Of a stretch of 64,000 nucleotides of DNA, positions 39,170 through 54,205 are shown piece by piece. Numbering within the stretch: position 1 is the first letter of the stretch; each line of letters opens with the position of its first letter. Position numbers and translations under genes: made by a program. Under the pieces are notes generated by a model. The model ran no database searches and was not told where the DNA came from. It saw nothing but the letters and a program-made list of their open reading frames with translations. Source of the stretch: Bacillales bacterium UBA743 (lineage in GTDB: Bacteria > Bacillota_I > Bacilli_A > RFN20 > CAG-826); the NCBI GenBank assembly GCA_002297365.1, contig DBKT01000011.1:18650-82649 (forward strand). Direction: 5' to 3'.

Positions 39170-39318
39170 CAAAGATATGATGCGAAAAAGGGTTTCCTTG
39201 ATGGAAATCCTTTTTTCTTTACCGATTTATCGAGAAATGCAAACAATAAATGATTTTGCAATGTTTCCTTAATTTATTTGCAATTGGTTTTCCTGTTTCA
39301 GGGACTAAAATCATATCA

Positions 39319-39332
39319 TGTAAGCGCTTTTA
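39319..39332. promoter_or_regulatory. cre-like site TGTAAGCGCTTTTA upstream of the 39395 gene. Two TTTGCAAT motifs lie at 39255-39262 and 39277-39284.
   Basis: 13 of 14 positions match the CcpA cre consensus. Confidence 0.4.
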
Positions 39333-39394
39333 TCGTCACGATACACAGCAAACTACACATACATATGGCTCGTTTGGCATTTTTAGGAGGTAAT

Positions 39395-40534
39395 ATGAGC
39401 ACACCAGAAAAAGAAAATGCTAAAACCAAGGTGGGATTAGAGAAAATTCTCAAAATCTCCATTCCTTGCGTTTTGGCAATCGGCTTCCTTGGTTCAATCC
39501 TTGGCGTCATTTTGACTAGTCCCGAGTTGAAAAACGATGAAGAGGGAACAAACGTCACCAAAGGACTTCTTCGCGTGAATCAAGCCGAATACCGCACCCA
39601 ATATTTTGCGGGCGAACACTTCAGTTTCAACAAAGAAACCGCCTTAGTCACGTTGGTTGCTAAGGACCCGCTTATCGAAGACATAGTCAAAGTCGATAAT
39701 TTGCCTGCGCCGGAATATGGTTTCGTTGTCGGGAAAACCATGGATGAGAACGGGAATCTCGTTTATGAAAGCGAGCTTGCTAGCGAAAGTCAAATCATAA
39801 CAAGCCAAGAAAACTCTTCTCAAGAAGACGTTTCTTCCTCTGAAACGCATAAATACACGACCGTTTATTCCGAATTCGTTTTAGACCCCGCGGAAATAAT
39901 CATGGAAAAGAACATGGGAACCGTCTATCTTGTTTCCAAAAGATATTCCGATCTGCGCTATCCATTAAGCACAAAGGTCTATAGCGCCTTAACGGAAGAA
40001 AATTTAACCAATGACGTAACCTTAGAGGCAGAAAGCGCGGATCTTTATCAAGACGATAAGCTCCTTTCTTATGAAGAAAAAGTAAGCAAATCCTTGCTTA
40101 GCAACGTCGGAAACAACCCTCTAAGCGAAGAGCAGGCCGCTAAATTGTCTCAGGGCGCATGTCTAAGAAATTTTAATGCCAATAATATGAAAGTGGATTT
40201 CATTGTCCCTGCTAGCAAAGATTGCGAAGTCACGATTGAGGTAGATTTCTGCGCCAGGCCAAAAGGCGGGCTCTTCTCTAGTTTCTTCCAGGTTTCCGTT
40301 AATGATGAGGCTTGTGAGCCAATCAACAACCAAAACGTTCCGGACGGAGAAGCGAAGCAATATTTCAACCCGGCAAAGCTGACCCCTGTTGCCATTTCAT
40401 TAAAAGAAGGCTTCAACCATATCACTTTCGTAAGCGGTGCCAAAGTAGGCACAGGCAGTCCCTTTAATCTAGATGCGATTCATCTAACTGCATCGGATGA
40501 TTGCATCAGCAGCCTTGCTGCTTTGGAAAAATAG
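39395..40534 (+). CDS. Hypothetical N-terminally membrane-anchored extracellular protein with a C-terminal beta-sandwich (CBM-like?) domain
   Basis: ATG at 39395 with perfect RBS TAGGAGG. TM ISIPCVLAIGFLGSILGVIL. Confidence 0.5.
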   Translation: MSTPEKENAKTKVGLEKILKISIPCVLAIGFLGSILGVILTSPELKNDEEGTNVTKGLLRVNQAEYRTQYFAGEHFSFNKETALVTLVAKDPLIEDIVKVDNLPAPEYGFVVGKTMDENGNLVYESELASESQIITSQENSSQEDVSSSETHKYTTVYSEFVLDPAEIIMEKNMGTVYLVSKRYSDLRYPLSTKVYSALTEENLTNDVTLEAESADLYQDDKLLSYEEKVSKSLLSNVGNNPLSEEQAAKLSQGACLRNFNANNMKVDFIVPASKDCEVTIEVDFCARPKGGLFSSFFQVSVNDEACEPINNQNVPDGEAKQYFNPAKLTPVAISLKEGFNHITFVSGAKVGTGSPFNLDAIHLTASDDCISSLAALEK

Positions 40535-40544
40535 GAGAATCCAT

Positions 40545-41039
40545 ATGAAGAATTTCTTTCAAAAACTCGCTGATTACTATCTCCATCTCCTAAAGAACAA
40601 ACGCGCGGGATTCTATCTTTGCGCCCTTACGGCTGTTTTGATGATCCTACAAGCCGCCGTCTACTCGATGGCGCCTAGCGAAGTCTTCAATTCCCTTGGC
40701 GTCACCTTAAGCGTCGTTGGCATCGTCTTATTTGTCGTTTTTTCTTTCTCCGTCAAGCAACTCGAAATCCTTGCGCCCGTTTCTTTGATGGTCATCAATT
40801 TCTCTTGTCTTGTCGCCTACGCTAAAGCAGACGACCTTCTTGACTATTTCTCCACTCAATTCTTTTCCGGTTTCTCTTTAAAGACCTTATTCTCTCTTCC
40901 CATCGGAGTTTGGCTGCCCATCATTCTTTTCCTTGCGAATTTCATCTTCTCTTCCGTCGCGATGTATTTGCCGCAAAGCAAAAAAGAGAGTGAGGAAAAG
41001 GCAAACAGAGCCCTTTCTGAAGGAGGTAACAACCAATGA
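40545..41039 (+). CDS. Small polytopic membrane protein
   Basis: ATG at 40545 with RBS AGGAGAA. Four hydrophobic segments. ATGA-coupled to the GH3 gene. Confidence 0.45.
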   Translation: MKNFFQKLADYYLHLLKNKRAGFYLCALTAVLMILQAAVYSMAPSEVFNSLGVTLSVVGIVLFVVFSFSVKQLEILAPVSLMVINFSCLVAYAKADDLLDYFSTQFFSGFSLKTLFSLPIGVWLPIILFLANFIFSSVAMYLPQSKKESEEKANRALSEGGNNQ

Positions 41040-44000
41040 AAAAATTTAAACGCACATTCACCGCTTCCAAGATTGTTTTCCACGTGGCTTTCGTCGCATA
41101 TTCTTTAGCAAGCGTGGCTACCCCTATCCTTTTAGGAAACGCAAGCATCATCAATACCACCTTAGGCATCAAAACAACCGAAGGGAATGCTTCCACAGCC
41201 GAAGGGAACATGTATTTCAACACCAAATTCAAGAGCATGGCAGAAGTCCATCAAGCATCATTGGATATCATCGATGAAACGTTGAAAGAAGGTACGGTTC
41301 TCCTTAAAAACGAAAATCACGCTCTTCCTTTGGCAAAAGAAAGCACCGTCAATATGTATGGTGCCGCATCTTATTATTCCGTCCACACCGGAGAAGGCTC
41401 CTCTGGATGCAATAAAGGCCAAGTCGTGAACAAGAGAGTCACTCTTTATGAAGGACTCACCAATGCTGGTTTGAAGGTCAACAGTTCCCTTAACGATTGG
41501 TATAAAGAACAAGGCAGCTCCAGCTTAGGAGACAATAACAACAAGCATTTCATGGGGCATGGCGACCAAGAAAGCCAGATGGTCGTCAAAGATATCGCCT
41601 GGGATTCCATCGATAACGCCAAAAATGATGAGGCGGATACCGCCATCTTTGTAATCGCTAGAAACTCTGGCGAAGCGATTGATATGTATATGGACACTAC
41701 CATGGAGGATGGCTCAAGAACAATCGTTTCCAGAGATCACAACGGCGATCCGAATGGCTCGGTTGGAGATTCTTTGGTTTTAAGCGAGAACGAAAGGAAT
41801 GTCCTAAGCAATCTCAAAATCTTGAAAGATACCGGAAAAGTCAAAAAAATCGTTGTCCTATTGAACTTAGCAAGCCCAATGCAAGGAGCCTTCCTGGAAG
41901 AGGAAAACCTTGGCATTGACGCCTGTATGTGGATTGGCCACTTGGCAGAAAATGGCGCTAATGCCGTAGGGAAGCTCTTGACTGGCGAATATAACCCGAG
42001 TGGCAAATTGACCGACACCTATTTCTCCGAGAGCAAATACAATCCCGTCTATTACAACTTCGGCAGCATGAAATACGAAGACGCCGACACCTATCTAAAG
42101 AAATATTTCAAGACAAGGGATGCTTATAACAATCTCTATTATGTCGCTTATCAAGAGGGTATTTATAACGGCTACAAATATACCGAAACAAGATATGAGG
42201 ACGAAGTAACGAATCGTAGCAATGTCGGAGACTTCGATTATAAAGAAGCGGTCTCTTTCCCGTTTGGATATGGCCTTTCCTATTCCAGTTTCGAATACTC
42301 GAATATGAATGTCGATTATGATGCAAAGAAAGACGAATACACCGTTACTCTCGACGTGGAAAACACCTCTGACATCGATGGTAAGGAAGCAGTCCAAGTC
42401 TATTTGCAAAAACCATATACAGACAAAGACATTCAAAACGGAATCGAAAAAGCTTCCGTTGAATTAGTCGGCTTTGACAAAGTCGAAGTTCCTGCTCATG
42501 AAAAAAAGAAGGCAACCATCAAAATAAAAGGCAAATATCTCGCCTCATATGATGCCAATTACGAAAAGACGTACGTGATTGGATCGGATAATAAAAACGA
42601 CAAGTATCTTCTTACGGCCGCGAAAGATTCCCATGATGCCATTAACAACATTCTGAAATGGAAGGCGAACAATGGCGTGGCCATTCAATCTGAAAAAATG
42701 ACCTCTCTCCCAGAGAGGGGTATGGGCGAGGCCTCTTTGGTTTATAGCAAATATCTTGCCTATGATAACGTCACTTATTCCACAAACGCCTTCATCGAAG
42801 AGCAAAACGCCACTTTGAAACCACGCTACAACGGGGAGAAAGTCAATTGGGGCGTAAACAAAATCACCAATCAATTCGATGACGTAGACTACACTAAGGC
42901 CAATCTATTCAATCAAGAGGAAACTTCTCAACCCTACACCACCCGTAACAACTGGAAAGACACGCTGGGCAAGAGAATCACTTTAAGTGCTTCTAAAGCA
43001 TTGGCCGAAGCGCAAAAGAGCGAAAAAGTCGAAAAAGACAGCATCCCATATCCGGTCTATGACGAAATCGGCTTCTATGAGACGGCCGACACTTTCGATG
43101 AAATCAAATTGATTTATCTAAAAGGCAAAGATTATAACGATTCCCTTTGGGATACCCTTTTAGACCGCGTTTCCTTCGAAGAAACCTGCGCCGTCTTGCA
43201 GGATGCGCTTCGTTATACCAATGGGGTGGATTCCATTTCCGCGCCCAAGAGCTCCCAGCAAAATGGCGCAGTCGGCCCAGTTCATTCCAGAACGGATGGC
43301 AATATCCCTGAGCAAAACGCTTTCCGTGGCTTTGCCGAACTTCTGGATAACGAGCACAAAGACGAATTCCCTGCCGTTTTCCCTTCTAATGCCACAGTAG
43401 GCGCGACATACAATATCGATCTGATTGAGAGACTAGGCGAGCAAACTGGCGAAGAAGCTGCTTGGGCTGGTTTTAATGGCATTTATGGCTTAGGGGTGAA
43501 TATTCACCGTGGCGCCTATTGCGGAAGAACTTTCGAATATTATTCCGAAGATGGCTTTTTAACGGGCGTTGCCGCTGGGTATGAAGCAGTCGGCCTTCAT
43601 AAGAAAGGCGTCTTCGTTATTGCGAAACACGCCGTTTTGAACGATCAAGAAACAAGACGAGCCGGCCTAAACGTTTGGGCTAATGAGCAAACGATTCGTG
43701 AAATCTATTCCAGAGCCTTGGAAGTTGCGATTGAAATTGACCGCGAATATACGCCTAACAGCGTCTTCGGAGTCATGACGGGCATGAATCGCCTTGGCGC
43801 AAAGTGGACGGGCGCGCAGGGTTTCTGCAATACCGTTTTGAAAGCGGAATACGGCATGAGGGGCTACGCTATCTCAGACTATAATTCATCCCGTCTTTAT
43901 ATGAGCCCGATCCAAGGCGTTTTGAATGGAAACGACCTTCCCGATGGTCAACCAGCCGGCGCCAAGGGCGGATACGACGATGATGGAAATGACATTCGTT

Positions 44001-44284
44001 TCTCTTCCTATTCCGTCGGATACGGAAAATTAGCTTGGGCCATGCGCGATTCATTGAAAGCCACCCTTTATACGGTTGTCAATTCCAACGCAATGAATGG
44101 CATTAGCGCCGACTCTTCCTTCCGCACGATCACCCCGACTTGGGAAAGGGTTTTGCCAATCGTTACGAGAGTGACGATGACCGTCTTTATTTGGTCTGCC
44201 GTCCTCTTTGGCTGCCTTTATCTTTACAACGTCTCTCTGGATGTCGTTAACTCCTTAAATTTAAAGAAAAAGGAAGATAAATAA
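41036..44284 (+). CDS. GH3 family glycosidase, 1082 aa, with N-terminal signal anchor and C-terminal TM anchor and apparently reversed domain order
   Basis: The C-domain-like TVLLKNENHALPLAKESTVNMYGAAS comes early. The barrel motifs GRTFEYYSEDGFL...KHAVLNDQE and GYAISDY are located late. C-terminal TM FIWSAVLFGCLYLY. Confidence 0.75.
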   Translation: MKKFKRTFTASKIVFHVAFVAYSLASVATPILLGNASIINTTLGIKTTEGNASTAEGNMYFNTKFKSMAEVHQASLDIIDETLKEGTVLLKNENHALPLAKESTVNMYGAASYYSVHTGEGSSGCNKGQVVNKRVTLYEGLTNAGLKVNSSLNDWYKEQGSSSLGDNNNKHFMGHGDQESQMVVKDIAWDSIDNAKNDEADTAIFVIARNSGEAIDMYMDTTMEDGSRTIVSRDHNGDPNGSVGDSLVLSENERNVLSNLKILKDTGKVKKIVVLLNLASPMQGAFLEEENLGIDACMWIGHLAENGANAVGKLLTGEYNPSGKLTDTYFSESKYNPVYYNFGSMKYEDADTYLKKYFKTRDAYNNLYYVAYQEGIYNGYKYTETRYEDEVTNRSNVGDFDYKEAVSFPFGYGLSYSSFEYSNMNVDYDAKKDEYTVTLDVENTSDIDGKEAVQVYLQKPYTDKDIQNGIEKASVELVGFDKVEVPAHEKKKATIKIKGKYLASYDANYEKTYVIGSDNKNDKYLLTAAKDSHDAINNILKWKANNGVAIQSEKMTSLPERGMGEASLVYSKYLAYDNVTYSTNAFIEEQNATLKPRYNGEKVNWGVNKITNQFDDVDYTKANLFNQEETSQPYTTRNNWKDTLGKRITLSASKALAEAQKSEKVEKDSIPYPVYDEIGFYETADTFDEIKLIYLKGKDYNDSLWDTLLDRVSFEETCAVLQDALRYTNGVDSISAPKSSQQNGAVGPVHSRTDGNIPEQNAFRGFAELLDNEHKDEFPAVFPSNATVGATYNIDLIERLGEQTGEEAAWAGFNGIYGLGVNIHRGAYCGRTFEYYSEDGFLTGVAAGYEAVGLHKKGVFVIAKHAVLNDQETRRAGLNVWANEQTIREIYSRALEVAIEIDREYTPNSVFGVMTGMNRLGAKWTGAQGFCNTVLKAEYGMRGYAISDYNSSRLYMSPIQGVLNGNDLPDGQPAGAKGGYDDDGNDIRFSSYSVGYGKLAWAMRDSLKATLYTVVNSNAMNGISADSSFRTITPTWERVLPIVTRVTMTVFIWSAVLFGCLYLYNVSLDVVNSLNLKKKEDK

Positions 44285-44298
44285 TCGAGGAACATTCT

Positions 44299-47077
44299 AT
44301 GAACAAGAAAAACAAAACTCTTATAACGGGCATGGCTTCTTTGATGATGTTTATTCCTGCCATGGTTTCCTGCAGCGGGAATAAGAATCACGGCGTTCAT
44401 GAACATGCTTTCTATCCCGTAATGGCGAAAGAGGCAACCTGCGTTTCTACAGGGAATATCGCCTATGATCAATGCATCTATTGCAAACAGATTGAAGTGA
44501 ATGGCGAAAGAAAAACCCTAGAAGAGGTCACTCTTCCTATGGACCCAGACGCTCATAAGCATCTGGAGGATTTCGCTGCCATCGCCCCTACTTGCATAAG
44601 CGGAGGCAATACCGCCTATTCTTATTGCGAGGATTGCGGAAAATACGTCATTGACGGGGAGACGGTAAACGGCAATGAGTCCGCTCTTCTCCCAATCGAG
44701 CCAAATAACCACCACTTAGAGGAATTAGCCTACAAAGCCCCAACATGCGGAACAGATGGCTATAAAGCCCATATGGAATGCACCCTTTGCCATAAAGATT
44801 TCATTGACGGCCAAGAGGTAAGCGAAGATAGCATCTTCATCCCTAAGACAAAGCAACACGTCTACGATGAAAACGGGGCGGATAACGTTTGCAAAAAAGC
44901 CTTCCAATTCGACAATCAGGTCTTTGATGACAATAACGCCTATAGCCTATCCGCTTGCTCAAAAGGAAAGGAGATGAATTCCACCCAAGAGAAAGCCCCT
45001 ATCGCTGAGGCGCTTAAAAACGAAAGAATGACTTTCATCACCCAAACCGATGGAGAAACTGCCACCACCGTTTCCAATGAGAATGGGGATATATCCCTCA
45101 CTCATAAAGTGGACAAAGACAATCCTCAGGCCTTCACCCGAATCGCTCCCGGTGTCAAAAAGAATGATGGGACAATAGAGACTTACGTTGGCAAATTCCT
45201 TTTCTCAATGGATGTCACATTCAAAGAGAATGTCTATGTCGCTCGTGTGGGAGCCATGATCGTCAACAGCTCCTTTTCCGTTATTTCCGCAAACAGCCAA
45301 GCGAAATTGTTGGGGAGAACAGGCGCCAATTCCGAAGGGAAGGCGGACCGTAGCTTCGAAGCGGGCGTGACCTATCGTTTCGTTTATTCCATGGAGACGA
45401 CCGACGAAACCCAACTGATACAATTGTGGGGTTGCTCTAATATGACAACGATTACCTATTCTAATTTCCACCTCATCCCTCTTACGGAAGCGGAAAATAA
45501 AGTAAGCTCCACTTTCCTTTATTTTGGGAAGACGGATATGGCAAATAATGAATTCCATGTCGAACCGAAACCAAATCCTGATCCAGCAAAGAAGAGCGTT
45601 CTTATGCCCAATGAGCAAAACTTCTTTGACGCCGCCAATTGGACAAAAGCGACCTCTAACGACCAAGAGGCCCTCGGAGAAGGCATCTACGAATCCGATG
45701 GAAGCCTATCTTTTGATAAAAACAGCGCGGCTCGAATCAATCTTTTCCATGTTAAGGCAAACGATGGAACGTTGATTCACGTCGGAGATAACGCCTCCAA
45801 GAAAGCCGAGCAACTCGCCGGAATCTATTCCAAAGAATATTCCTATAGTTTGGAAATGCTTGTGAATGGCAGCTTCGACATGGGCATATTAGCCGCAGGC
45901 AAAGCCTTGAATAAATCCATAACCGAACAAGCCGCGCTCTATCTTACCTTCTTAGAGGATGGCTCCATTAGCATGAGTCAAACCTCTGGCGACCCCTCTT
46001 CCGTCTTCACCGATCACTTCAACGTAGCCTCCGGAAGCTATGAGCAAGGTAAGAAATTCACCTTCACGATCAAGTTGCATAGAACGGATGCGAAAACCTT
46101 AAAAGTTCAATTTTTAATCAATGGCGCCGCTTTGAAATGGAATGGAGATGCCATCACCACCAAAACGGGATATTCCTATGGTTTTGATGAGAATGGCGTA
46201 TTCACTTCCAGCAAATATCTTGCCAACATTGGAATGGGCCAGAGATTAAGCGTCCTTCCTACCAGCGAATCCTCTAAGGTGACGATCTCGGATTTGAAGA
46301 TCGAAACGAAAACCGTTGAAACCCCTGCAGAGCCTGAAGCCTCTCTTGACGCATTAGAAGTCAGCAATCCCTACACGATGTATAACGGCTATGACTTGTT
46401 TGCCTCTGGCAATTGGACTGCCGCAAACGAAAACAAAACGGCAAGAGATGACGAAACGATCAAAGATTCCGATGGAAATCTCGTTTTCAAAAAGGATACT
46501 TCCAGTCGGATTGATTTCTTTCATGTGGCAAAAGACGCGAAGGGGAATCTCCGTCACCTTGCGGATAAGAAAGACAATATCGCTTCTTTGGACATCAAAA
46601 ACAAAGACTATCGCTTTGACTTGGATATGAGTTCTTCTGGGGCGTTTGATTTGATGATGCTCGGGAATGCCTCCGCTTTTGGCAAATCAGACAAGAACAA
46701 TTCTTTCTATCTGAGTGCCGATGCCGAGGGCACGCTCTCCTTATCTTTCGCGCTCAATAAGACTTTCATGTCCACGTTTGTAAGCGAAGCGAAATTCGAT
46801 TTCACGAAAAAAGCAACGCATTTCCATCATCATGAATCGAGTGAACGATTCCGACATCGATATTTCAATCTACCTCGATTACAAACAAGTGAAATGGATG
46901 GGCGAATCTTCTAAGCCAAACACTTCTTCCGCTCTTTCCGTTAATGAAGAGGGGAAAGTATCTTTAACCGGTTTATTAGCCACTGTCGGCCTTGGGCAAA
47001 GATTAGGCGTCATGCCAGCAGATTCTTCCACAGTGAAAATCTTAGGCGCAGCCTTCCTGCCTTCTCCGACAAAATAA
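44299..47077 (+). pseudogene. Surface lipoprotein of ~925 aa. It carries three Cys-rich ~45-aa tandem modules followed by ~230-aa repeats. The reading frame is broken by a +1 frameshift at an A6 tract.
   Basis: Lipobox-like AMVSC. ORF 44299-46914 ends in out-of-frame residues (THFHHHESSERF...). The +1 frame 46832-47077 continues the third repeat: GLGQRLGVMPADSS aligns with GMGQRLSVLPTSES. Removing one A from AAAAAA at 46807-46812 restores a single ORF. Confidence 0.6.
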
Positions 47078-47087
47078 GATAACAATC

Positions 47088-47118
47088 GAAAGAAACGGGC
47101 TTCGGCTCGTTTTCTTTT
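47088..47118. terminator. Bidirectional terminator between the convergent lipoprotein and hydrolase genes
   Basis: ACGGGC-TTCG-GCTCGT followed by TTTTCTTTTT. Confidence 0.5.
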
Positions 47119-48092
47119 TATTTTTGATAATTTATATTTTCCTTGTCTAAAAGCGCGTAAGAGAGCATTTTCTCGCCTTCTATATCGATGTTAGAAAGCT
47201 TCACCGCATTGATTTGATGATTGTTATATGTCTTGTAATAGTAGATTCCATCATCAAGGTTGCAACACGAGGAATAAATCGTGATTTCGTATTTATTGGA
47301 GGAAAGCTCACAACAGCCTCTTTGTTGATCTACGGAATCAAGAATATGGAAGAATTGGTTCACGCTGGAGATCTCATCTTTATCGCACACGGAGTTGTAT
47401 TTGGTGAAAGCCGCCCTCACAAAACGAGATGTGGAGGATAGCCCTCCGGGGAGAAAATTCGTTCCCATGCCCCTGCTATATTTCTTTAAATCAATTCTTG
47501 AGGAGAAGGCGTTCTCAGGATCCCTTGATGTAATGCCCATGTACTGGTTTAAGAGAGCAAGATGAATGTTATAAGAAGGGTTATTCGTAAGCACTCCGAT
47601 GGAATTTTCATATACATGGGTCCCATCTTTTTGAAATTCCACCACAATGGATTCCTTTTTATCCGCAATAAGATAATGGAGCTCGGCGCATGGATAAGTC
47701 TCATTATAGGGAGTATCGCATATGTTTAATGTGAGCAGGGATTGTTTTACTTGCTCAACCGTTTCAAAAGAAGAAAGAACATAAAGGATAAACTCATATT
47801 GAGCGACATCGCATCCCTCGTTCGTTGGTTTATTGTATTTCGCGTTACCAACAAAATTAAGCCCTGCTATAGCAAGTCCTTTTTCATTAAAGCCATCATA
47901 GAAAAGAGGATATCCTTCATGGATATGCGCCATGCCCAATAAAGCGTAATGACGTTTTTTACCTTCTGAATATCGGAAAGAAATAGGATAGTTTCTCGGT
48001 AAGATAACAATTTCTTCCCCGTAAGAGAACTCATAGTCAAGGTTTCTCCCGAAATAATGATTCTGGGTGGTGAAAGTTATGGATGTGCACAT
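47118..48092 (-). CDS. Choloylglycine hydrolase family (bile salt hydrolase / penicillin V acylase-like Ntn hydrolase)
   Basis: MCTSITF N-terminus, with the nucleophile Cys2 directly after the start Met. ATG at 48092 with AAAGGAGAAG RBS. The track start at 48158 is an extension. Confidence 0.8.
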   Translation of the reverse strand: MCTSITFTTQNHYFGRNLDYEFSYGEEIVILPRNYPISFRYSEGKKRHYALLGMAHIHEGYPLFYDGFNEKGLAIAGLNFVGNAKYNKPTNEGCDVAQYEFILYVLSSFETVEQVKQSLLTLNICDTPYNETYPCAELHYLIADKKESIVVEFQKDGTHVYENSIGVLTNNPSYNIHLALLNQYMGITSRDPENAFSSRIDLKKYSRGMGTNFLPGGLSSTSRFVRAAFTKYNSVCDKDEISSVNQFFHILDSVDQQRGCCELSSNKYEITIYSSCCNLDDGIYYYKTYNNHQINAVKLSNIDIEGEKMLSYALLDKENINYQK

Positions 48093-48277
48093 AAAATCTT
48101 CTCCTTTATTTAATTTCATTCTAACAAGGAGATTGTGAAATGGAAGAGAAGGATTCAAAACGAATGCACGCCCTAGCTCTTTTTAAAATCACGTTTTGCC
48201 TTAACCGGTTGAAGGAAGATTAATCCCACGTTTTTAATTTTTCCTGTCTTTAAAAAATTGGTTATTCAAAAAGAAAA

Positions 48278-48303
48278 GGAACATCTCGGAAAGGAGATGT
48301 TCC
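48278..48303 (-). terminator. Rho-independent terminator after the cupin gene
   Basis: Perfect 10-bp stem GGAACATCTC/GAGATGTTCC followed on the minus strand by a U-rich tract. Confidence 0.7.
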
Positions 48304-48322
48304 TTTTACAAACGGTTAGATA

Positions 48323-48646
48323 TTAGAAAACGACCGTAAGCAACATCTTGAAATTCGTTTCGCCATATACGGCGTGAGGATGTTTGGCTGGCATGATGAT
48401 AGACTCCCCTTCATGAAGAAGATATTCCTTGCCATCGATAGTCAATTTGCCTATGCCTTCTAAACAAGTCACAAGCGCATCCCCACTGGATTCGTGGGTG
48501 CTGATTTCCTCTCCTTTCCAAAAAGAGAAGATCGTCATGCTTAAGGCGTCGTTTTGCGCAAGGGTTTTGCTAACGATTTGGCCCTCTTGGTATTCGACTT
48601 GCTCTTTTAATGATAGAACGGTCGCTTTTTCAATATTTTTTAGCAT
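48323..48646 (-). CDS. Cupin-domain protein
   Basis: 107 aa. Cupin motifs HESSGDALVTCLEG...HPHAVYG. Confidence 0.6.
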   Translation of the reverse strand: MLKNIEKATVLSLKEQVEYQEGQIVSKTLAQNDALSMTIFSFWKGEEISTHESSGDALVTCLEGIGKLTIDGKEYLLHEGESIIMPAKHPHAVYGETNFKMLLTVVF

Positions 48647-48665
48647 GGCTTTATTCCTTTTGCTT

Positions 48666-50357
48666 TTAAGCTCCTAATATTCCAACAAGGAAAACGTAAC
48701 TGACTTGCCCGGTCACGGAGCTTGTTTGCTGCCCAAGGAAAGGCTGAAGAGTGAGATTCTTTTGGCCGATGGCCTTGCTATAAATAGTGTACGTATTCCC
48801 GTCACTATCGGATTCCACGCTCTTTGTGAAACCAGCCGTTTCAAGCCTCGCATAATAGCTAGTTAAGAGCTCTTCCCCTTCTTCTAGGGTTGATATTCTT
48901 GCTTGAAGGTAAGGAATTCCTCCGCTACCCCCGCAGGATCCTTCGGAATAGACTCCGCCAAAAGTAGGGATGGCATTAAGAAGGGCTTCCCCCCCTAAAA
49001 TTTGAGCAAGATAGCTATAATCGTTTTCATCACGGATGATTTGTTCCCATGTTAAATTAGAAGAGTCTTCCTTGATTTGATAGGTGGGTGCGCTCTTTTT
49101 TCCGAAATTGCTGAAAACCATCTCTTCTTTTGCGCCGAAAATGGTACGGCCATTCCCTTCGTTGGTAGAAGTAAAAGTGATTTTATCGTCCTCGAAGTTG
49201 ATGGTTAAGGTTTGGATGCTGTCGCTTACGAAAGGAGTGTAAATCGTCGTGGAAGCGAACATTCCCAAATATTTGCTGTCGAGAGTGAACACTCCGTCTT
49301 TTTCATCGAAGAAGACGCTGGAGATGTCGTAAGTTGGCCAGAAATCAGTAATCTTGGAATCCATAGGCTTCCCAGAAAGATAAGCCTCTCCATCATACAG
49401 AGCAAGCCTTTGGGCTTTTGAATCCCTCATCACATAGGAAGCTTCTTCCGTGACTTTATTCGCATTATTCAAGAAACGGTAAGTGAATCCGTCCCCCCAA
49501 GAAGAAGAGACGACGCTTTCTGTTTCTTCATATCTTCCATCCTTGGCTTTAATCTCATAGTTTGTTCCATTGGCTTCGAAATTAAGCGCGGCAATCTTCT
49601 TCATTCCATTTTGGAAGGTCTTGTTTTCCTCTTTATTGATGGGTTGAATGTCTTGAACGCTCTCTCCCATACTCACGAAGGTGCCCTCATAAACGCTGGA
49701 AATGCTGATCTCGCTTATGTAGGTGATGGTGTATTGCTCCAATTCGGCCTTAAAAGAGACGCTGCCGTCTTCATTCATGGTCAAAACCATGGAAGAAATG
49801 GAAGATTCGCTGCTTCTTGGATAACCACGAAGCTGGCTTCCCATGTATTTGGCGGCTGCAAGATTGCTCGCTTTTTTAAAGACGTATGTCCCGTCTTTTT
49901 TTTCAAAGTTCTCTGCTTTGAAAACGGTGAAAGCGTTCTTTAGGAAAGAAGCGCTCCAGCTTTTCCCTTCAACGGGGGTTGAGGTAACTGTATTGGCTAA
50001 GCTGAGGGTGTGCTCAACGATTTTCTTATCCTCTTCCGCATAAAGATAATCATCATTCACAACGCTCTTATCGGGATTTCCTGAGAGAGTTTGATCATAA
50101 ATGATGTGACGGTATTTTGAGGAATCTCCGTAGATTTCTTCGTAGCCTTTATAGATGGTTTCGCTGCCAGAAGTGCTTTCAACGGCTTTATAAGTGGAGG
50201 TAGCAAGCAATTCAAGATGATAGCCGCCTTTTAGTTTCTCCAAGGTTTCATCCAGGGTGAGAGGAGATTTTTTCTCAGAGCTTTCCGTTACTTCATTTGA
50301 AGAGCAGCCCGCAAGTAAAACAAATGCGGACAATAATAAGATAGATGATTTTTTCAT
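48666..50357 (-). CDS. Lipoprotein of unknown function
   Basis: Signal peptide with lipobox LLAGC. Contains an A8 tract in the coding strand at 49897-49904. Confidence 0.6.
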   Translation of the reverse strand: MKKSSILLLSAFVLLAGCSSNEVTESSEKKSPLTLDETLEKLKGGYHLELLATSTYKAVESTSGSETIYKGYEEIYGDSSKYRHIIYDQTLSGNPDKSVVNDDYLYAEEDKKIVEHTLSLANTVTSTPVEGKSWSASFLKNAFTVFKAENFEKKDGTYVFKKASNLAAAKYMGSQLRGYPRSSESSISSMVLTMNEDGSVSFKAELEQYTITYISEISISSVYEGTFVSMGESVQDIQPINKEENKTFQNGMKKIAALNFEANGTNYEIKAKDGRYEETESVVSSSWGDGFTYRFLNNANKVTEEASYVMRDSKAQRLALYDGEAYLSGKPMDSKITDFWPTYDISSVFFDEKDGVFTLDSKYLGMFASTTIYTPFVSDSIQTLTINFEDDKITFTSTNEGNGRTIFGAKEEMVFSNFGKKSAPTYQIKEDSSNLTWEQIIRDENDYSYLAQILGGEALLNAIPTFGGVYSEGSCGGSGGIPYLQARISTLEEGEELLTSYYARLETAGFTKSVESDSDGNTYTIYSKAIGQKNLTLQPFLGQQTSSVTGQVSYVFLVGILGA

Positions 50358-50376
50358 GTTTATTTCCTTTTCTTAA

Positions 50377-52434
50377 TTAGTTTAGCATCAAATATGCTAA
50401 GCGACTTGTTTTTCCTAAGTAGATGCCATTCGCCCCCTCAAAAAGAACGACGACAACCTTCACACTGCCCCCTTTGGAATCCTTAAAAGAGATTTGCTTG
50501 TCTTTGACTTCGAAGTCGCCGGTCGTTTTTTTGTTATTCGTATCCTCGACAACAAACGTTCCGGCTGTGGATGAGCCTTCCTTTAAGGCGAATTCAGCCG
50601 TCAAATAGGCAGATTGCGTATTTAAAGAATTCCATTTTGCCTTCGTTAAATAGGAAGCGATGCCTTCATCGGTATAAGCAAAGACGTTTACTTCTCTTAC
50701 TTCGGTTTCCACTCCTCCTGAGCTTTTTGCCTTCAAAGAGATTTTGCCTGGTTTGCTTGTATGAAGAACATAGCTAAAAGGAGAAGACGAATCCTTGGTG
50801 ATTGTGGCGCCAATTTCATTGGTAACGAATTCGATGGTCGTATCATCATCCGCCCCTTCATTGGCGGTTAAAGTAAATGGCGTATCGCCCACGATAACGT
50901 TTTCGGAAAGATAAGTTCCATCTTTCACATTAAGGTTAGCAAAGTGCGGTTTCGCAGAGAACTCTAAGCTGGTGATCTCATGCCTTTCGATTTCCACTTC
51001 AAGCTTGAAGCCGGTTAATAATGTCGTTTTGTAATTAAAGACGTAATTCCCTTCCTTTTTGATCGTAAGGGCATTGCCATCTAAGAGATAGGAATCTTCT
51101 GGGGCGGTTTCCCCGTCTTTTGTGACAGAAACTAAGGTAAGAGGATCGATATTGGTAGACCCAGTCCCGTTTTTCGTGACGATGACATAATATTTTTCGT
51201 TCAATTTGAAATCCGTCACCGGATTGGTCGCATAAGGATTTGCGCCCAAGAAAATAATCAACTCGTTTTTGTCCTTAAAGAAGAATTGATCAAGGTCTAA
51301 AGTCGTGCTTTCTCTTTGACCGATTGTTTCTTCCAGAGTGACGGCCGTATCGAAAGTCAAACGACGCTTGGAACCATCTGTTTCAGAATCGTATGACTTA
51401 ATATGCGCATCCATGGAAGAGAGATATCCTTCGGCATTGAGCTTTATGCTCATGCTATATTCCATATAAACGTTTTTGCCGACGTCATCTTTTACGATTT
51501 CGGAGGTATTCAATGTATAAACGCCATCTTTTTCCTCCAATAACGCGTTTCTCCTTGCTTCGATGGAGGAGAATTTGCTTACCCCGTCGAAATAATTATC
51601 TAAAACATAGCGCAAGGCACCGACTTTGTCAGAGAATTCGCCTTTATTCAGGAAGGCGTTGGTTTCATCTAAATCCGTGATTTCTTTGCTGGATGATTTT
51701 TGCTCATTCACGCTGTATTTATCATCGGAATAATCGCTTACGACATCCACAAGACGATTATGGGCTATGCCATATTGGTGAAGGGTTTTTGTGTCTTTCT
51801 CATCTTTATCGCTTTCGGTGATTTCGATGCTGGTTTTGGAATCGGCGTAAAAAGAAGCGTTCCAAGTCGTTCCTTTGGAGCGGTTAATGACGTTTTCCCA
51901 TTCTTGGGTGTCGCTGTTTTGCCGATAATAATATTCGTCGCTTTGAACGGATAAAGTGAGCTTAGACACTTTGGATGGATCTTTTTCTTCCGCATTCTCT
52001 AGGAGCTTTAGGAAGGTAGGATAAGCGGTAGAATCGATCTTCGCCTCAACGATGATGCTTATAGGTTCGCTTGTCTTTCCGGCAATGCTTGCGCTGATTT
52101 GAGCCTCGCCTTGCGAAATGCCTTTGATTTTTCCGGTATTGTCTACACTTAAAACATCAGCGTCGGAACTTTTCCAAATGAGGGTATCGCTTGGCTTTGC
52201 GTTTTCGACTTGAGCTTGTAATTGAAGTTCATCTCCAACCGTGATTTTATTCGTGGCGGGAGCGAGGATAGAAACCGAGACTTCCAAGAAGGATTCATCG
52301 CTTGGGGAAGAATGAATAATTTCACTATTTTCATATGGTGAGGCGCTAGAAGGAGTCTCCGTTTGAGCGCAAGCGGCCAAGCCTAATAAGGCAAAGACGC
52401 TTAATAAAGTTAGGCGAACTGGTTTTTTCATCAT
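50377..52434 (-). CDS. Lipoprotein with Ig-like (Big_2) domain
   Basis: Lipobox LAAC. Big_2-like block DTLIWKSSDADVLSVDNTGKIKGISQGEAQISAS. RBS AAGGAG. Confidence 0.6.
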   Translation of the reverse strand: MMKKPVRLTLLSVFALLGLAACAQTETPSSASPYENSEIIHSSPSDESFLEVSVSILAPATNKITVGDELQLQAQVENAKPSDTLIWKSSDADVLSVDNTGKIKGISQGEAQISASIAGKTSEPISIIVEAKIDSTAYPTFLKLLENAEEKDPSKVSKLTLSVQSDEYYYRQNSDTQEWENVINRSKGTTWNASFYADSKTSIEITESDKDEKDTKTLHQYGIAHNRLVDVVSDYSDDKYSVNEQKSSSKEITDLDETNAFLNKGEFSDKVGALRYVLDNYFDGVSKFSSIEARRNALLEEKDGVYTLNTSEIVKDDVGKNVYMEYSMSIKLNAEGYLSSMDAHIKSYDSETDGSKRRLTFDTAVTLEETIGQRESTTLDLDQFFFKDKNELIIFLGANPYATNPVTDFKLNEKYYVIVTKNGTGSTNIDPLTLVSVTKDGETAPEDSYLLDGNALTIKKEGNYVFNYKTTLLTGFKLEVEIERHEITSLEFSAKPHFANLNVKDGTYLSENVIVGDTPFTLTANEGADDDTTIEFVTNEIGATITKDSSSPFSYVLHTSKPGKISLKAKSSGGVETEVREVNVFAYTDEGIASYLTKAKWNSLNTQSAYLTAEFALKEGSSTAGTFVVEDTNNKKTTGDFEVKDKQISFKDSKGGSVKVVVVLFEGANGIYLGKTSRLAYLMLN

Positions 52435-52447
52435 TGTTTCTCCTTAA

Positions 52448-54052
52448 TTATTTATTCACACCGTAATGGATGGCTTTTACGCCGGTGCACCAGGTAGCAT
52501 CAAAAAGATACGGCCTTTCTTGGAAGGAAACATTCACGGTGAGATTTGGGCAAGAAGTTATCGCAGATGCGCGGGCTTCTAGGACGCTATCAGGAACGAA
52601 TATCTCCTTTAACGATTCGTCCCTATCAAAAAGGTTGCTTTCTAATTCGACGACGCTATCGGGAATATTGATGGAGGTGAGCTTTTCGCAATTTCCAGCA
52701 AAGCCAGTTCCTAAAACAGTCGGCCTATTGAGAAGCTGGATGCTTGTGAGGGAAGAACAAGAATTAAAGAGATTCCCACCCATATTTTTAACGGTGGCGG
52801 GAATGCTCATGGAAGTAAGGGATGTCATCTGAAAGAAAGCGTCATCCCCTATCGTTTCAACGCTAGCAGGGATGGTGAAGGAAGAGATGCCCTTCGCATC
52901 CCTTAGGCATTGCGAAGCTAAAACAACCGTGTGTTCATCTAATTCCAAAGATGTCGCATTTGCGTCTTTCAATCCCATAAAAACATGATATGGGTTCTCT
53001 TTGTTTCCTAAATAATTGCCGCCGTCTTTCTCGTTATAAACCAAAGCGCCCGGGTTGTCATATTCCGTAAAGGCATAAAACCCCACTTCTTTCACGCTGG
53101 AAGGGATATTGATGGCGGTGAGTTTGATCGCTCCGGAGAAGGCTTCGTTGCCGATTGTCTCCAACGAATTGCCGCTTATGGTGCAGGTTGTCATATTCGC
53201 ACAGCCCGTAAAAGCGTATTCATCGATGCGTTTCACGCTGGAAGGGATTTCAATGGACTCAAACGGGCAAGAGCGGAATGCGGAAGCGCAAATAACCTCC
53301 AATCCTTCGTTTAAGGTGACTTTGGCAAGCGATTCCTCACTTTCAAAAAGAGAGCCTCCGATGATTTTCGTATCCGGATGGAATTCGGCTTCTTCAGGAG
53401 CTGGGTTTTTCGCATTCACTTTGTAAGCGATCAAATGGGGGTTGTTAGAATTCCCTAAATACTCAATGCCTTTATATAGGGAGGTAACGAGTTTATCGGA
53501 TTGGAAAAGATTGGAACCCAAATCCTTTAACGTAGAAGGGAATGAGACGTTTTCCAGATTCACGCAATTGGAGAAAACGGAATCGCCAATCGTTTCCACT
53601 CCTTCTGGAATATGAATATCTTTCATGTAGCGAAGCCCAACGAAGGCTCTTCTTCCAATATGTCTTAGGCTTGAAGGCAAAGACACTTCTTCGATATTGG
53701 TACAACCCAGGAAAGCATCCACGCCGATAGAGACGACGTTCTCAGGAACAATGACTTTCGTAATCTTCGTTTTGTCTTTGAATGCCCCATCTAAAATGCG
53801 GGTGACAGGTTTTCCTTCATAGGTTGCGGGTATATTGGCAACGAGAGAACTCCCATTTACCTTTTTAAGGACAGCCTCCTCTCCGCTGATGCCCATCTCA
53901 TATTGAATAGGCGTTCCTTCTTGGCTGGAGGAAGAATTTTTTTCGCTGCTTTCTATGCTAGAAATCTCAGCGCTTGAAGAAGGCGTATCTTGAGCTTGGC
54001 AAGCAGCCAAAAACAAGAACGCAGGAATAAGAACAAGATTGATTTTTCTCAT
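52448..54052 (-). CDS. Lipoprotein with BspA-type leucine-rich repeats
   Basis: Lipobox LAAC. LRR_5-like units IPEGVETIGDSVFSNCVNLENVSFPSTL repeated. ATG at 54052 preferred, with RBS GAGGT. Confidence 0.65.
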   Translation of the reverse strand: MRKINLVLIPAFLFLAACQAQDTPSSSAEISSIESSEKNSSSSQEGTPIQYEMGISGEEAVLKKVNGSSLVANIPATYEGKPVTRILDGAFKDKTKITKVIVPENVVSIGVDAFLGCTNIEEVSLPSSLRHIGRRAFVGLRYMKDIHIPEGVETIGDSVFSNCVNLENVSFPSTLKDLGSNLFQSDKLVTSLYKGIEYLGNSNNPHLIAYKVNAKNPAPEEAEFHPDTKIIGGSLFESEESLAKVTLNEGLEVICASAFRSCPFESIEIPSSVKRIDEYAFTGCANMTTCTISGNSLETIGNEAFSGAIKLTAINIPSSVKEVGFYAFTEYDNPGALVYNEKDGGNYLGNKENPYHVFMGLKDANATSLELDEHTVVLASQCLRDAKGISSFTIPASVETIGDDAFFQMTSLTSMSIPATVKNMGGNLFNSCSSLTSIQLLNRPTVLGTGFAGNCEKLTSINIPDSVVELESNLFDRDESLKEIFVPDSVLEARASAITSCPNLTVNVSFQERPYLFDATWCTGVKAIHYGVNK

Positions 54053-54205
54053 AAGGAACCTCACCACTATAACTATAAAATTATATTGTAGATAACGAGA
54101 ATGGAAAAGGACGAAAGAAGAGCAAGAAAATGCTCCTGGGGTTTCTTTTTAGTGACATAGTTTTTATTACTAGGTATACTAGAGATTGAAAAAAGGGGTT
54201 TTGTT

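What the first reader, a model, noticed from the sequence alone, without database searches (positions are those of the whole stretch)
44299..47077. Large Cys-repeat surface lipoprotein interrupted at an in-gene A6 homopolymer, a candidate phase-variation switch
The ORF 44299-46914 ends in an obviously out-of-frame tail (…FTKKATHFHHHESSERFRHRYFNLPRLQTSEMDGRIF). The +1 frame continues the internal ~230-aa repeat up to 47077: GLGQRLGVMPADSSTVKI aligns with GMGQRLSVLPTSESSKVTI in the previous repeat. The frame switch falls on AAAAAA at 46807-46812. With A5 the sequence reads FDFTKKQRISIIMNRVNDSDIDISIYL, which aligns with FTFTIKLHRTDAKTLKVQFL of repeat 1, and gives a single ~925-aa lipoprotein. Slipped-strand mispairing at poly-A tracts is the classic ON/OFF mechanism for Mollicute/Firmicute surface lipoproteins. 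Alternatively this is a sequencing indel or a fixed pseudogene.
Basis: seen in the sequence. Interest (0 to 1): 0.65.

Follow-up and report, generated by a model that had tools for sequence, protein, structure and literature searches.

The report
Sporadic one-base frameshift in lipoprotein gene
One extra A in a short run of A's cuts off the last tenth of a sugar-binding surface lipoprotein in this single strain of an uncultured gut-type Clostridia bacterium; every other known copy is intact, so it looks like an ordinary mutation and not an on/off switch.

Summary
ORF 44299-46914 leaves its frame at A6 (46807-46812). The +1 frame continues the internal repeat to 47077, and removing one A gives a 925-aa lipoprotein. 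Twelve of 13 conspecific alleles (at least 99% identical) are intact 925-aa proteins, as are all orthologues at 70-84% identity. The nearest local haplotype (L012) reads TTC ACG AAA AAG CAA (A5+G), so the window carries a +1 A insertion. That is the only indel in 14.9 kb.

The phase-variation reading is not supported:
- The tract is short and ordinary. The window has 116 A/T runs of 6 or more.
- Its purity is not conserved: orthologues read AAG AAG, AAG AAA or AAA AAA.
- It lies 90% of the way into the gene.
- It removes only the second half of a terminal lectin-like domain that shorter homologues lack altogether.
- No other out-of-frame allele was found.
- In a sister species, +1 homopolymer indels hit the neighbouring GH3 gene as well.

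The most likely explanation is a recent, strain-specific frameshift. Less likely is a consensus error. The protein itself has a lipobox, three His/Cys mini-repeats and three ConA-like beta-sandwich domains. It sits in a GH2/GH3/MFS sugar-utilisation cluster and has no Pfam or NCBIfam family.

The parts
44287..44292 (+). Shine-Dalgarno-like GAGGAA, 6 nt before the ATG. It lies only 14 nt after the stop of the upstream GH3 gene, so the two genes are probably co-transcribed.
   Evidence: Read directly from the sequence. GH3 ORF ends at 44284.
44299..46914 (+). The ORF as it stands: 871 aa, of which the last 33 aa are out-of-frame junk.
   Evidence: The frame-0 tail has no similarity to repeat 1.
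44299..44373 (+). Lipoprotein signal peptide: MNKKNK n-region, a hydrophobic core, and the lipobox A-M-V-S-C with Cys25.
   Evidence: Sequence. Cys25 is invariant in 14 homologues. The model has pLDDT below 50 for residues 1-33, as expected for a signal peptide.
44398..44898 (+). Three small beta-hairpin repeats of about 50 aa with the pattern H-x11-13-C-x10-C-x2-C, plus a fourth degenerate copy (H187, C198).
   Evidence: H34, C48, C59, C62, H86, C99, C110, C113, H187 and C198 are invariant. Secondary structure. No Pfam or NCBIfam model.
44899..45552 (+). Beta-sandwich domain A (aa 201-418), ConA-like lectin fold.
   Evidence: AlphaFold model with block pLDDT mostly 87-94. Foldseek PDB hits to laminin-G, galectin and CBM domains.
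45586..46317 (+). Internal repeat 1 (aa 430-673), a beta-sandwich domain with the conserved GMGQRLSVLP motif.
46360..47077 (+). Internal repeat 2 (aa 688-925 of the intact protein), interrupted by the frameshift after residue 838.
   Evidence: Repeat alignment E=9e-30 across the junction. Intact in 12 conspecific alleles.
46807..46812 (+). The A6 run that holds one A too many. The intact local haplotype has A5 followed by G.
   Evidence: Window TTCACGAAAAAAGCAACGC against L012 TTCACGAAAAAGCAACGC. This is the only gap in 14,875 aligned nt.
46813..47077 (+). The +1-frame continuation. From 46814 it encodes QRISIIMNRV...GLGQRLGVMP...SPTK and the stop, and it is not translated in this allele.
   Evidence: Identical in amino-acid sequence to the C-terminus of P0001, P0031 and P0032.
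47092..47123 (+). Terminator-like hairpin plus T-run placed just after the full-length stop codon.
   Evidence: 9-bp stem, tail CTTTTTATTT.

Best explanation
This is a non-programmed, recent, strain-specific frameshift. One A was inserted (A5 to A6, ordinary replication slippage) into the Lys-Lys codons AAA-AAG at codons 837-838 of a 925-codon gene.

The gene encodes a surface-anchored lipoprotein made of three His/Cys mini-repeats and three ConA-like (lectin or CBM-type) beta-sandwich domains. It is the last gene of an MFS-GH2-GH3 sugar-utilisation cluster in an uncultured Clostridia-type bacterium, and it probably binds a glycan at the cell surface.

The mutant allele makes an 871-aa product. 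It lacks the last 87 residues, which form 6 of the 15 strands of the third sandwich domain and include the conserved GLGQRLGVMP motif. They are replaced by 33 junk residues. The signal peptide, the repeats and the first two sandwich domains stay intact, so the protein is clipped rather than switched off.

Shown here:
- the insertion and its polarity;
- the intactness of all other alleles;
- the fold;
- the ordinariness of the tract.

Inferred:
- that the insertion is a true mutation and not a consensus error;
- the glycan-binding role;
- residual function of the clipped protein.
For: - Twelve of 13 distinct sequences in the >=90% identity cluster are 925 aa. Only the window's allele is 871 aa.
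- Orthologues at 70-84% identity are all intact and keep TKKQR at the junction.
- Six conspecific contigs from six assemblies are in frame. The window's only indel against each of them is at this site.
- The local haplotype (C46803, G46813, sites 46585-46870) equals L012 plus one A.
- There is no excess of window-unique substitutions in the gene: 3 of 9 in 6,240 nt. There are none downstream of the shift, so the lesion is young.
- The tract is ordinary. The window has 116 A/T runs of 6 or more (1.8 per kb), against 0.72 per kb in this gene.
- The same 871-aa product is on record from JGI/IMG and from Logan. I take the Logan record to be an independent reassembly of public reads. This was not verified, because one search showed only the JGI contig. 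If it holds, the extra base is in the read consensus.
- Control: in the sister species, contig L008 differs from L006 (99.93% identical) by two +1 indels. One is A7 to A8 and splits the GH3 gene. The other is T6 to T7. Such indels are therefore not specific to the lipoprotein.
- Structure and fold. Cluster context.
- Homologues P0006-P0008 naturally end after repeat 1.
Against: - No reads were available, so a consensus error at the homopolymer cannot be excluded, and neither can a minority A5 subpopulation.
- Only one lesion is present, so 'pseudogene' in the sense of long-term decay is not shown.
- Short poly(A) tracts (A6/A7) in Firmicutes have been proposed as reversible inactivation sites (Orsi et al. 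2010, PMC2831843). A low-rate reversion is therefore physically possible.
Confidence: 0.7

Rival explanations
1. Sequencing or consensus error. The real strain has A5 and an intact 925-aa gene, and the extra A is an artefact of homopolymer calling or assembly.
For: - Homopolymer +1/-1 errors are the commonest indel artefact (general knowledge).
- The reading frame downstream is perfectly preserved, with no further lesion.
- Contig L008 in the sister species shows two +1 homopolymer indels against only four substitutions. That ratio looks like platform error, so such artefacts do occur in these public assemblies.
Against: - The window's assembly is otherwise free of indels: one gap in 14,875 nt against L012, including intergenic DNA.
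- A6 is short for a systematic Illumina error (general knowledge).
- The identical 871-aa product is also listed from Logan, which I take to be a separate assembly of public reads. This was not verified.
- The 325-kb contig suggests good coverage.
Confidence: 0.2
2. Phase variation. The A run is a contingency tract whose reversible A5/A6 slippage toggles the lipoprotein between full-length and truncated forms in the population.
For: - The lesion is exactly a one-unit length change in a homopolymer inside a surface lipoprotein gene.
- Precedent exists for short poly(A) tracts. In L. monocytogenes inlA, A6 to A7 occurs at 5.5e-7 and A7 to A6 at 3.9e-8, about 1000-fold above the point-mutation frequency (PMC2831843).
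Against: - The tract is far shorter than the cut-offs used for phase-variable A/T tracts: T>=11, G>=9 (PMC5953494).
- The measured A6/A7 rates are about 1e-7. That is too low for a mixed ON/OFF population.
- Tract purity is not conserved: ACT AAG AAG, ACC AAG AAA, ACA AAA AAG and ACG AAA AAA in orthologues.
- It sits at 90% of the ORF, whereas inactivating tracts cluster at 5' ends (PMC2831843).
- It removes only part of a terminal module that homologues P0006-8 lack.
- Only one of 13 alleles is out of frame. None of the five hapA contigs with an equally long in-frame A6 is shifted.
- A6 runs are common in the window and under-represented in this gene.
Confidence: 0.06
3. Recoding. The frameshift is decoded by +1 ribosomal frameshifting (tRNA-Lys slipping from AAA to AAG on AAA-AAA-G) or by transcriptional slippage on the A run, so full-length protein is still made.
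For: - The sequence A-AAA-AAG is slippery in principle. tRNA-Lys can re-pair one base downstream (general knowledge of slippery sites such as dnaX A-AAA-AAG).
- The downstream frame is intact.
Against: - The shift is absent from all 12 conspecific alleles and all orthologues, so it is not a conserved programmed site.
- The required shift is +1, and the -1 frame hits a stop within about 10 codons.
- The next 0-frame codon is an ordinary GCA, not a stop or a rare codon.
- RNA-polymerase slippage usually needs runs of about 9 or more (general knowledge).
Confidence: 0.03

Closest known systems
Strain-specific homopolymer frameshift alleles of Firmicute surface proteins, such as L. monocytogenes inlA A7/A6 (Orsi et al. 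2010, PMC2831843)
   Same: A one-base change in a short poly(A) run inside a surface-protein gene truncates the product. It occurs in some strains only, while the intact allele dominates.
   Different: - The inlA tract lies at codon ~5-8 and abolishes the protein, and the shift arose at least twice. Here the tract is at codons 837-838 of 925, it clips one terminal domain, and it is seen in one allele only.
- The intact state here is A5+G or A6+C, with no sign of selection for the tract.
Classical SSR contingency loci (Neisseria, Campylobacter, Haemophilus, and Mycoplasma variable lipoproteins)
   Same: The mechanism class is the same: slipped-strand mispairing in a mononucleotide run that changes the reading frame of a surface protein.
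   Different: Those tracts are long (G/C of about 7-9 or more, A/T of about 9-11 or more, often much longer). They are conserved as tracts, polymorphic in length in most isolates, and placed in promoters or 5' coding regions. None of these four properties is met here.
ConA-like lectin / laminin-G / CBM beta-sandwich modules (galectins, CBM40, CBM66, legume lectins), and surface glycan-binding lipoproteins of polysaccharide-utilisation loci
   Same: - Three tandem beta-sandwich domains with Foldseek probability about 1.0 to laminin-G, galectin and CBM structures.
- Lipid-anchored, and encoded next to GH2, GH3 and a sugar transporter.
   Different: - Only 8-14% sequence identity to any solved structure.
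- No Pfam or NCBIfam family.
- The N-terminal His/Cys repeats are not part of known CBM families.
- Sugar binding is untested.

Membership tests
SSR/homopolymer phase-variable (contingency) gene | A hypermutable tract long enough for high-frequency slippage. Survey cut-offs are G>=9 and T/A>=11. The shortest proposed poly(A) cases are A6-A8. | tested here: not met
   The tract is A6 in the window and A5 or A6 in intact alleles. Cut-offs come from PMC5953494. Measured A6/A7 rates are about 1e-7 to 1e-8.
SSR/homopolymer phase-variable (contingency) gene | Tract-length polymorphism giving ON and OFF frames in many strains or samples. | tested here: not met
   Only one of 13 distinct conspecific protein alleles is out of frame. 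Six of six other conspecific contigs and six orthologous contigs are in frame.
SSR/homopolymer phase-variable (contingency) gene | The tract is kept pure and conserved among orthologues. | tested here: not met
   Orthologues read AAG AAG, AAG AAA, AAA AAG and AAA AAA at the two Lys codons. The third codon positions vary freely.
SSR/homopolymer phase-variable (contingency) gene | The tract lies in the promoter or the 5' part of the ORF, so that OFF abolishes the product. | tested here: not met
   The tract is at codons 837-838 of 925, 90% into the ORF. The loss is limited to part of the last domain, which homologues P0006-8 lack altogether.
SSR/homopolymer phase-variable (contingency) gene | Within-population length heterogeneity at the tract in the reads. 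| not testable with these tools
   No read data are available. Only consensus contigs can be inspected.
Bacterial lipoprotein (Lgt/LspA substrate) | A positively charged n-region, a hydrophobic h-region, and a lipobox ending in an invariant Cys. | tested here: met
   MNKKNK-TLITGMASLMMFIPAMVS-C25. C25 is invariant in 14 homologues. Lipidation itself was not tested.
ConA-like lectin / LamG-type carbohydrate-binding beta-sandwich | A two-sheet jelly-roll fold that matches solved members. | tested here: met
   The model has pLDDT 84. Foldseek PDB hits: laminin-511 LG E=1e-10, galectin-9 1e-7, CBM40 1e-4, CBM66 3e-4. This is a fold-level match only.
ConA-like lectin / LamG-type carbohydrate-binding beta-sandwich | Demonstrated sugar binding or conserved ligand-binding residues. 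| not testable with these tools
   Sequence identity is only 8-14%, so binding-site residues cannot be transferred.
Programmed frameshift / transcriptional-slippage gene | The frameshift site is conserved in orthologues, with a slippery motif in the right register and a stimulator. | tested here: not met
   All other alleles and orthologues are encoded in a single frame. The needed shift is +1, and the -1 frame is closed.
Pseudogene (decaying) | Disruption relative to intact orthologues, plus accumulation of further lesions or relaxed constraint. | tested here: inconclusive
   The disruption is shown. There is only one lesion, and the gene carries 3 window-unique substitutions (2 nonsynonymous, 1 synonymous) against a background of 9 in 6,240 nt. 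That is too few to judge constraint.

The most novel reading that the evidence does not exclude
The short A5/A6 run acts as a low-rate, reversible 'module-clipping' site. Slippage removes only the terminal lectin-like domain of a glycan-binding lipoprotein and changes ligand range or antigenicity without silencing the protein. Selection in the gut would enrich one or the other form in different hosts.
Probability: 0.05. Interest if true: 0.4.

Novelty: new member of a known kind. Interest (0 to 1): 0.12.

Why it matters
It matters little for biology as a switch. The result shows that an eye-catching frameshift at a poly-A run in a surface lipoprotein can be an ordinary strain-specific lesion. 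It also shows which cheap comparative checks separate that from a contingency locus: the nearest haplotype, tract conservation, position in the gene, and a census of similar runs. For annotation, the two ORFs 44299-46914 and 46832-47077 should be merged as one frameshifted gene. The protein family itself has no family assignment. It combines a lipobox, His/Cys mini-repeats and three ConA-like domains, and it sits next to GH2, GH3 and an MFS transporter. It is a reasonable candidate surface glycan-binding protein of uncultured gut Clostridia, which is of modest interest.

Tried and rejected
1. G-insertion hypothesis. After the first comparison the nearest intact contigs read ACG AAA AAA CAA. 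The window then seemed to carry an inserted G at 46813 and not an extra A. I rejected this when L012 turned up with TTC ACG AAA AAG CAA. L012 shares C46803, G46813 and the whole 46585-46870 haplotype with the window. One slippage event on an observed haplotype is simpler than a non-templated G insertion on an unobserved one.

2. First genome-contig scan, using the lipoprotein alignment. It gave no confirmed locus. The second scan, with the GH3 protein, gave only two distant MAGs: uncultured Clostridia and Christensenellaceae, 61-66% identity. Only L010 has a distant homologue of the lipoprotein, at about 30% identity.

3. Metagenome pattern scan for all tract variants. It returned only L012 and missed the window's own JGI contig and L015, so it is not an exhaustive population survey.

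4. Protein search with the out-of-frame tail, to find other frameshifted alleles. It returned nothing at all, not even the intact alleles, so it is uninformative.

5. Pfam and NCBIfam scans of the protein gave no family.

6. The afdb50 fold library was unavailable.

7. A literature search for the sample and assembly accessions found nothing.

8. Paralogues in the window that might act as a variable gene family: none.

9. Accelerated decay of the gene: not seen.

Full report
**1. The observation**

- ORF 44299-46914 (871 aa) starts with MNKKNK...MVSC and ends in a 33-residue tail, ATHFHHHESSERFRHRYFNLPRLQTSEMDGRIF.
- AAAAAA lies at 46807-46812, between G46806 and G46813.
- The +1 frame is open from the tract to the stop at 47075-47077. 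Deleting one A gives a single ORF of exactly 925 codons.
- The internal duplication is real. Residues 426-685 against 686-925 align at 31% identity over 231 residues, E=9e-30, straight through the junction.
- The +1 tail alone hits repeat 1 at E=3e-10, while the frame-0 tail hits nothing.
- A terminator-like hairpin (47092-47113 plus a T-run) follows the full-length stop, not the premature one.

**2. What the intact gene looks like elsewhere**

It also found intact orthologues of 927-933 aa at 84, 73, 72 and 70% identity. All of them read ...FD[FL]TKKQR[IV]SII... at the junction.

The 90%-identity cluster holds 13 distinct sequences. Twelve are 925 aa, and the only truncated one is the window's own 871-aa product. 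That product is on record from JGI/IMG, GEM, NCBI, ENA and Logan. The JGI contig, 3300029947 Ga0116655_100002 (325,570 bp), is 100% identical to window 39299-51914.

NCBI names one member 'Firmicutes/Bacillota bacterium' (a MAG). The neighbouring GH3 protein finds only uncultured Clostridia and Christensenellaceae MAGs, at 61-66% identity. The host is therefore an uncultured Clostridia-type Bacillota, not a Mollicute.

**3. Polarity of the lesion**

The contigs encoding P0001 read ACG AAA AAA CAA, which is A6 followed by C. The window's only indel against them then looked like an extra G at 46813.

Fetching more alleles resolved this. The species carries two intact haplotypes at the site:
- hapA is TTT ACG AAA AAA CAA (L001, L002, L013, L014, L015).
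- hapB is TTC ACG AAA AAG CAA (L012).

The window reads TTC ACG AAAAAA G CAA. It shares C46803, G46813 and every variable site from 46585 to 46870 with L012, apart from one unique synonymous change. L012 is 99.55% identical to the window over 14,875 nt with exactly one gap, at this tract.

**4. Is it a switch? Five independent tests say no**

(a) Length. A5/A6 is far below the thresholds used to call phase-variable mononucleotide tracts: G>=9 and T>=11 in PhasomeIt (PMC5953494). Short poly(A) tracts have been argued to act as reversible inactivators, in L. monocytogenes inlA. The measured frequencies there were 5.5e-7 (A6 to A7) and 3.9e-8 (A7 to A6) (PMC2831843). These are orders of magnitude too low to keep a mixed ON/OFF population.

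(b) Conservation. The two Lys codons read AAG AAG, AAG AAA, AAA AAG and AAA AAA in different orthologues and haplotypes. The homopolymer is simply the drift state of two Lys codons.

(c) Position. The tract is at codons 837-838 of 925. Inactivating tracts are concentrated at 5' ends (PMC2831843).

(d) Population. Only one of 13 alleles is out of frame. The five hapA contigs, which carry an equally long in-frame A6, are all in frame.

(e) Ordinariness. The 64-kb window holds 116 A/T runs of 6 or more (1.8 per kb). The gene has fewer than average, at 0.72 per kb.

As a control, the sister-species contig L008 differs from L006 (99.93% identical) by two indels. Both are +1 in homopolymers. One is A7 to A8 and splits the neighbouring GH3 gene. 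The other is T6 to T7. Such events, or errors, hit whatever gene carries a run, not specifically the lipoprotein.

**5. Real mutation or error?**

No reads could be inspected. Three points favour a real mutation:
- The assembly is otherwise free of indels against conspecific contigs.
- A6 is short for a systematic error.
- The same 871-aa product is also listed from Logan. I take that record to be an independent reassembly of public reads, though this was not verified (one search showed only the JGI contig).

The lesion is young. There is no second lesion and no window-unique substitution downstream of the shift. The gene holds 3 window-unique substitutions, against 9 in the 6,240 nt shared with at least four relatives.

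I put about 0.7 on a true strain-specific frameshift, about 0.2 on a consensus error, about 0.06 on phase variation, and about 0.03 on recoding. Recoding is disfavoured for three reasons. The shift is not conserved, it must be +1, and the -1 frame closes within about 10 codons.

**6. What the protein is**

There is no Pfam or NCBIfam family. An AlphaFold model of the intact allele P0001 has mean pLDDT 84 and shows:
- a disordered signal peptide (1-33) ending in the lipobox Cys25, which is invariant in 14 homologues;
- three small beta-repeats of about 50 aa, each with invariant H-x11-13-C-x10-C-x2-C (34-164), plus a degenerate fourth;
- three beta-sandwich domains (201-418, 430-673, 688-925).

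Foldseek against the PDB matches laminin-G, galectin, CBM40, CBM66, legume-lectin and Emp47 domains. That is the ConA-like lectin fold, at 8-14% identity.

The gene follows, on the same strand and with a 14-nt gap, a GH3 gene. Before that come two unknown proteins, a GH2 and an MFS_2 sugar transporter. I infer a surface glycan-binding lipoprotein of a Gram-positive sugar-utilisation cluster. This is an inference from fold and context, not a test.

**7. Consequence of the frameshift**

The shift after residue 838 removes six of the fifteen strands of the third sandwich, together with the conserved GLGQRLGVMP motif. That domain cannot fold. The anchor, the repeats and the first two sandwiches are untouched. 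Homologues P0006-P0008 (623-688 aa, 33-49% identity) naturally end after repeat 1, so the lost module is a lineage-specific extra. The allele is better described as clipped than as OFF. This is a further reason why the site makes a poor ON/OFF switch.

**8. Verdict**

This is an ordinary lesion of a known kind in an otherwise uncharacterised protein family, so the interest is low.

Noticed in passing
window 41036-44284 (+): The upstream GH3 protein (1082 aa) has its Pfam domains in permuted order: GH3 C-terminal domain at 87-380, Fn3-like at 451-511, GH3 N-terminal domain at 780-950. It also has hydrophobic stretches at both ends.
   Followed up: no
L008 544 and 7716 (against L006): A sister-species contig that is 99.93% identical to two others carries two +1 homopolymer indels. 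A7 to A8 splits the GH3 gene into 288 + 785 aa, and the other is T6 to T7. There are only four substitutions, so this may be platform error or real.
   Followed up: partly
window 44398-44898 (+): - The three-fold His/Cys mini-repeat (H-x11-13-C-x10-C-x2-C) has invariant H and C residues and may be a Cys3His metal site.
- It has no Pfam or NCBIfam model.
- The same module is the only part shared with many 1000-1600-aa proteins, some with LRR/BspA-type domains (P0010-P0025).
- It gives a weak hit to PDB 9qa6_A 'IgA protease' (E=0.0017).
   Followed up: partly
window 44478-46870: The window's allele is a mosaic. Variable sites 44478-46300 follow contigs L013-L015, while sites 46585-46870 follow L012/L001. 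This indicates recombination between conspecific haplotypes inside the gene.
   Followed up: partly
P0006, P0007, P0008: Homologues of 623-688 aa have the same architecture but stop after repeat 1. The second repeat is therefore a recent tandem domain duplication in the window's lineage.
   Followed up: partly
window 48666-54067 (-): Three consecutive genes (563, 685 and 539 aa) all begin with lipoprotein-type signal peptides (LLAGC, GLAAC, FLAAC). They have no or only weak family hits (Big_2). Together with the studied gene they form a lipoprotein-rich surface locus.
   Followed up: no
window 47118-48158 (-): A convergent gene encodes a choloylglycine/bile-salt-hydrolase-family protein (CBAH, E=5e-94), which suggests a gut habitat. 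The ORF listing extends it to 346 aa from a TTG start, whereas other assemblies aa.
   Followed up: no
window 39278-41039 (+): Two ORFs between GH2 and GH3 (called as 389 and 164 aa in the JGI record) have no Pfam or NCBIfam family. The only hit is a sub-threshold match to a T7SS EccD membrane protein.
   Followed up: no
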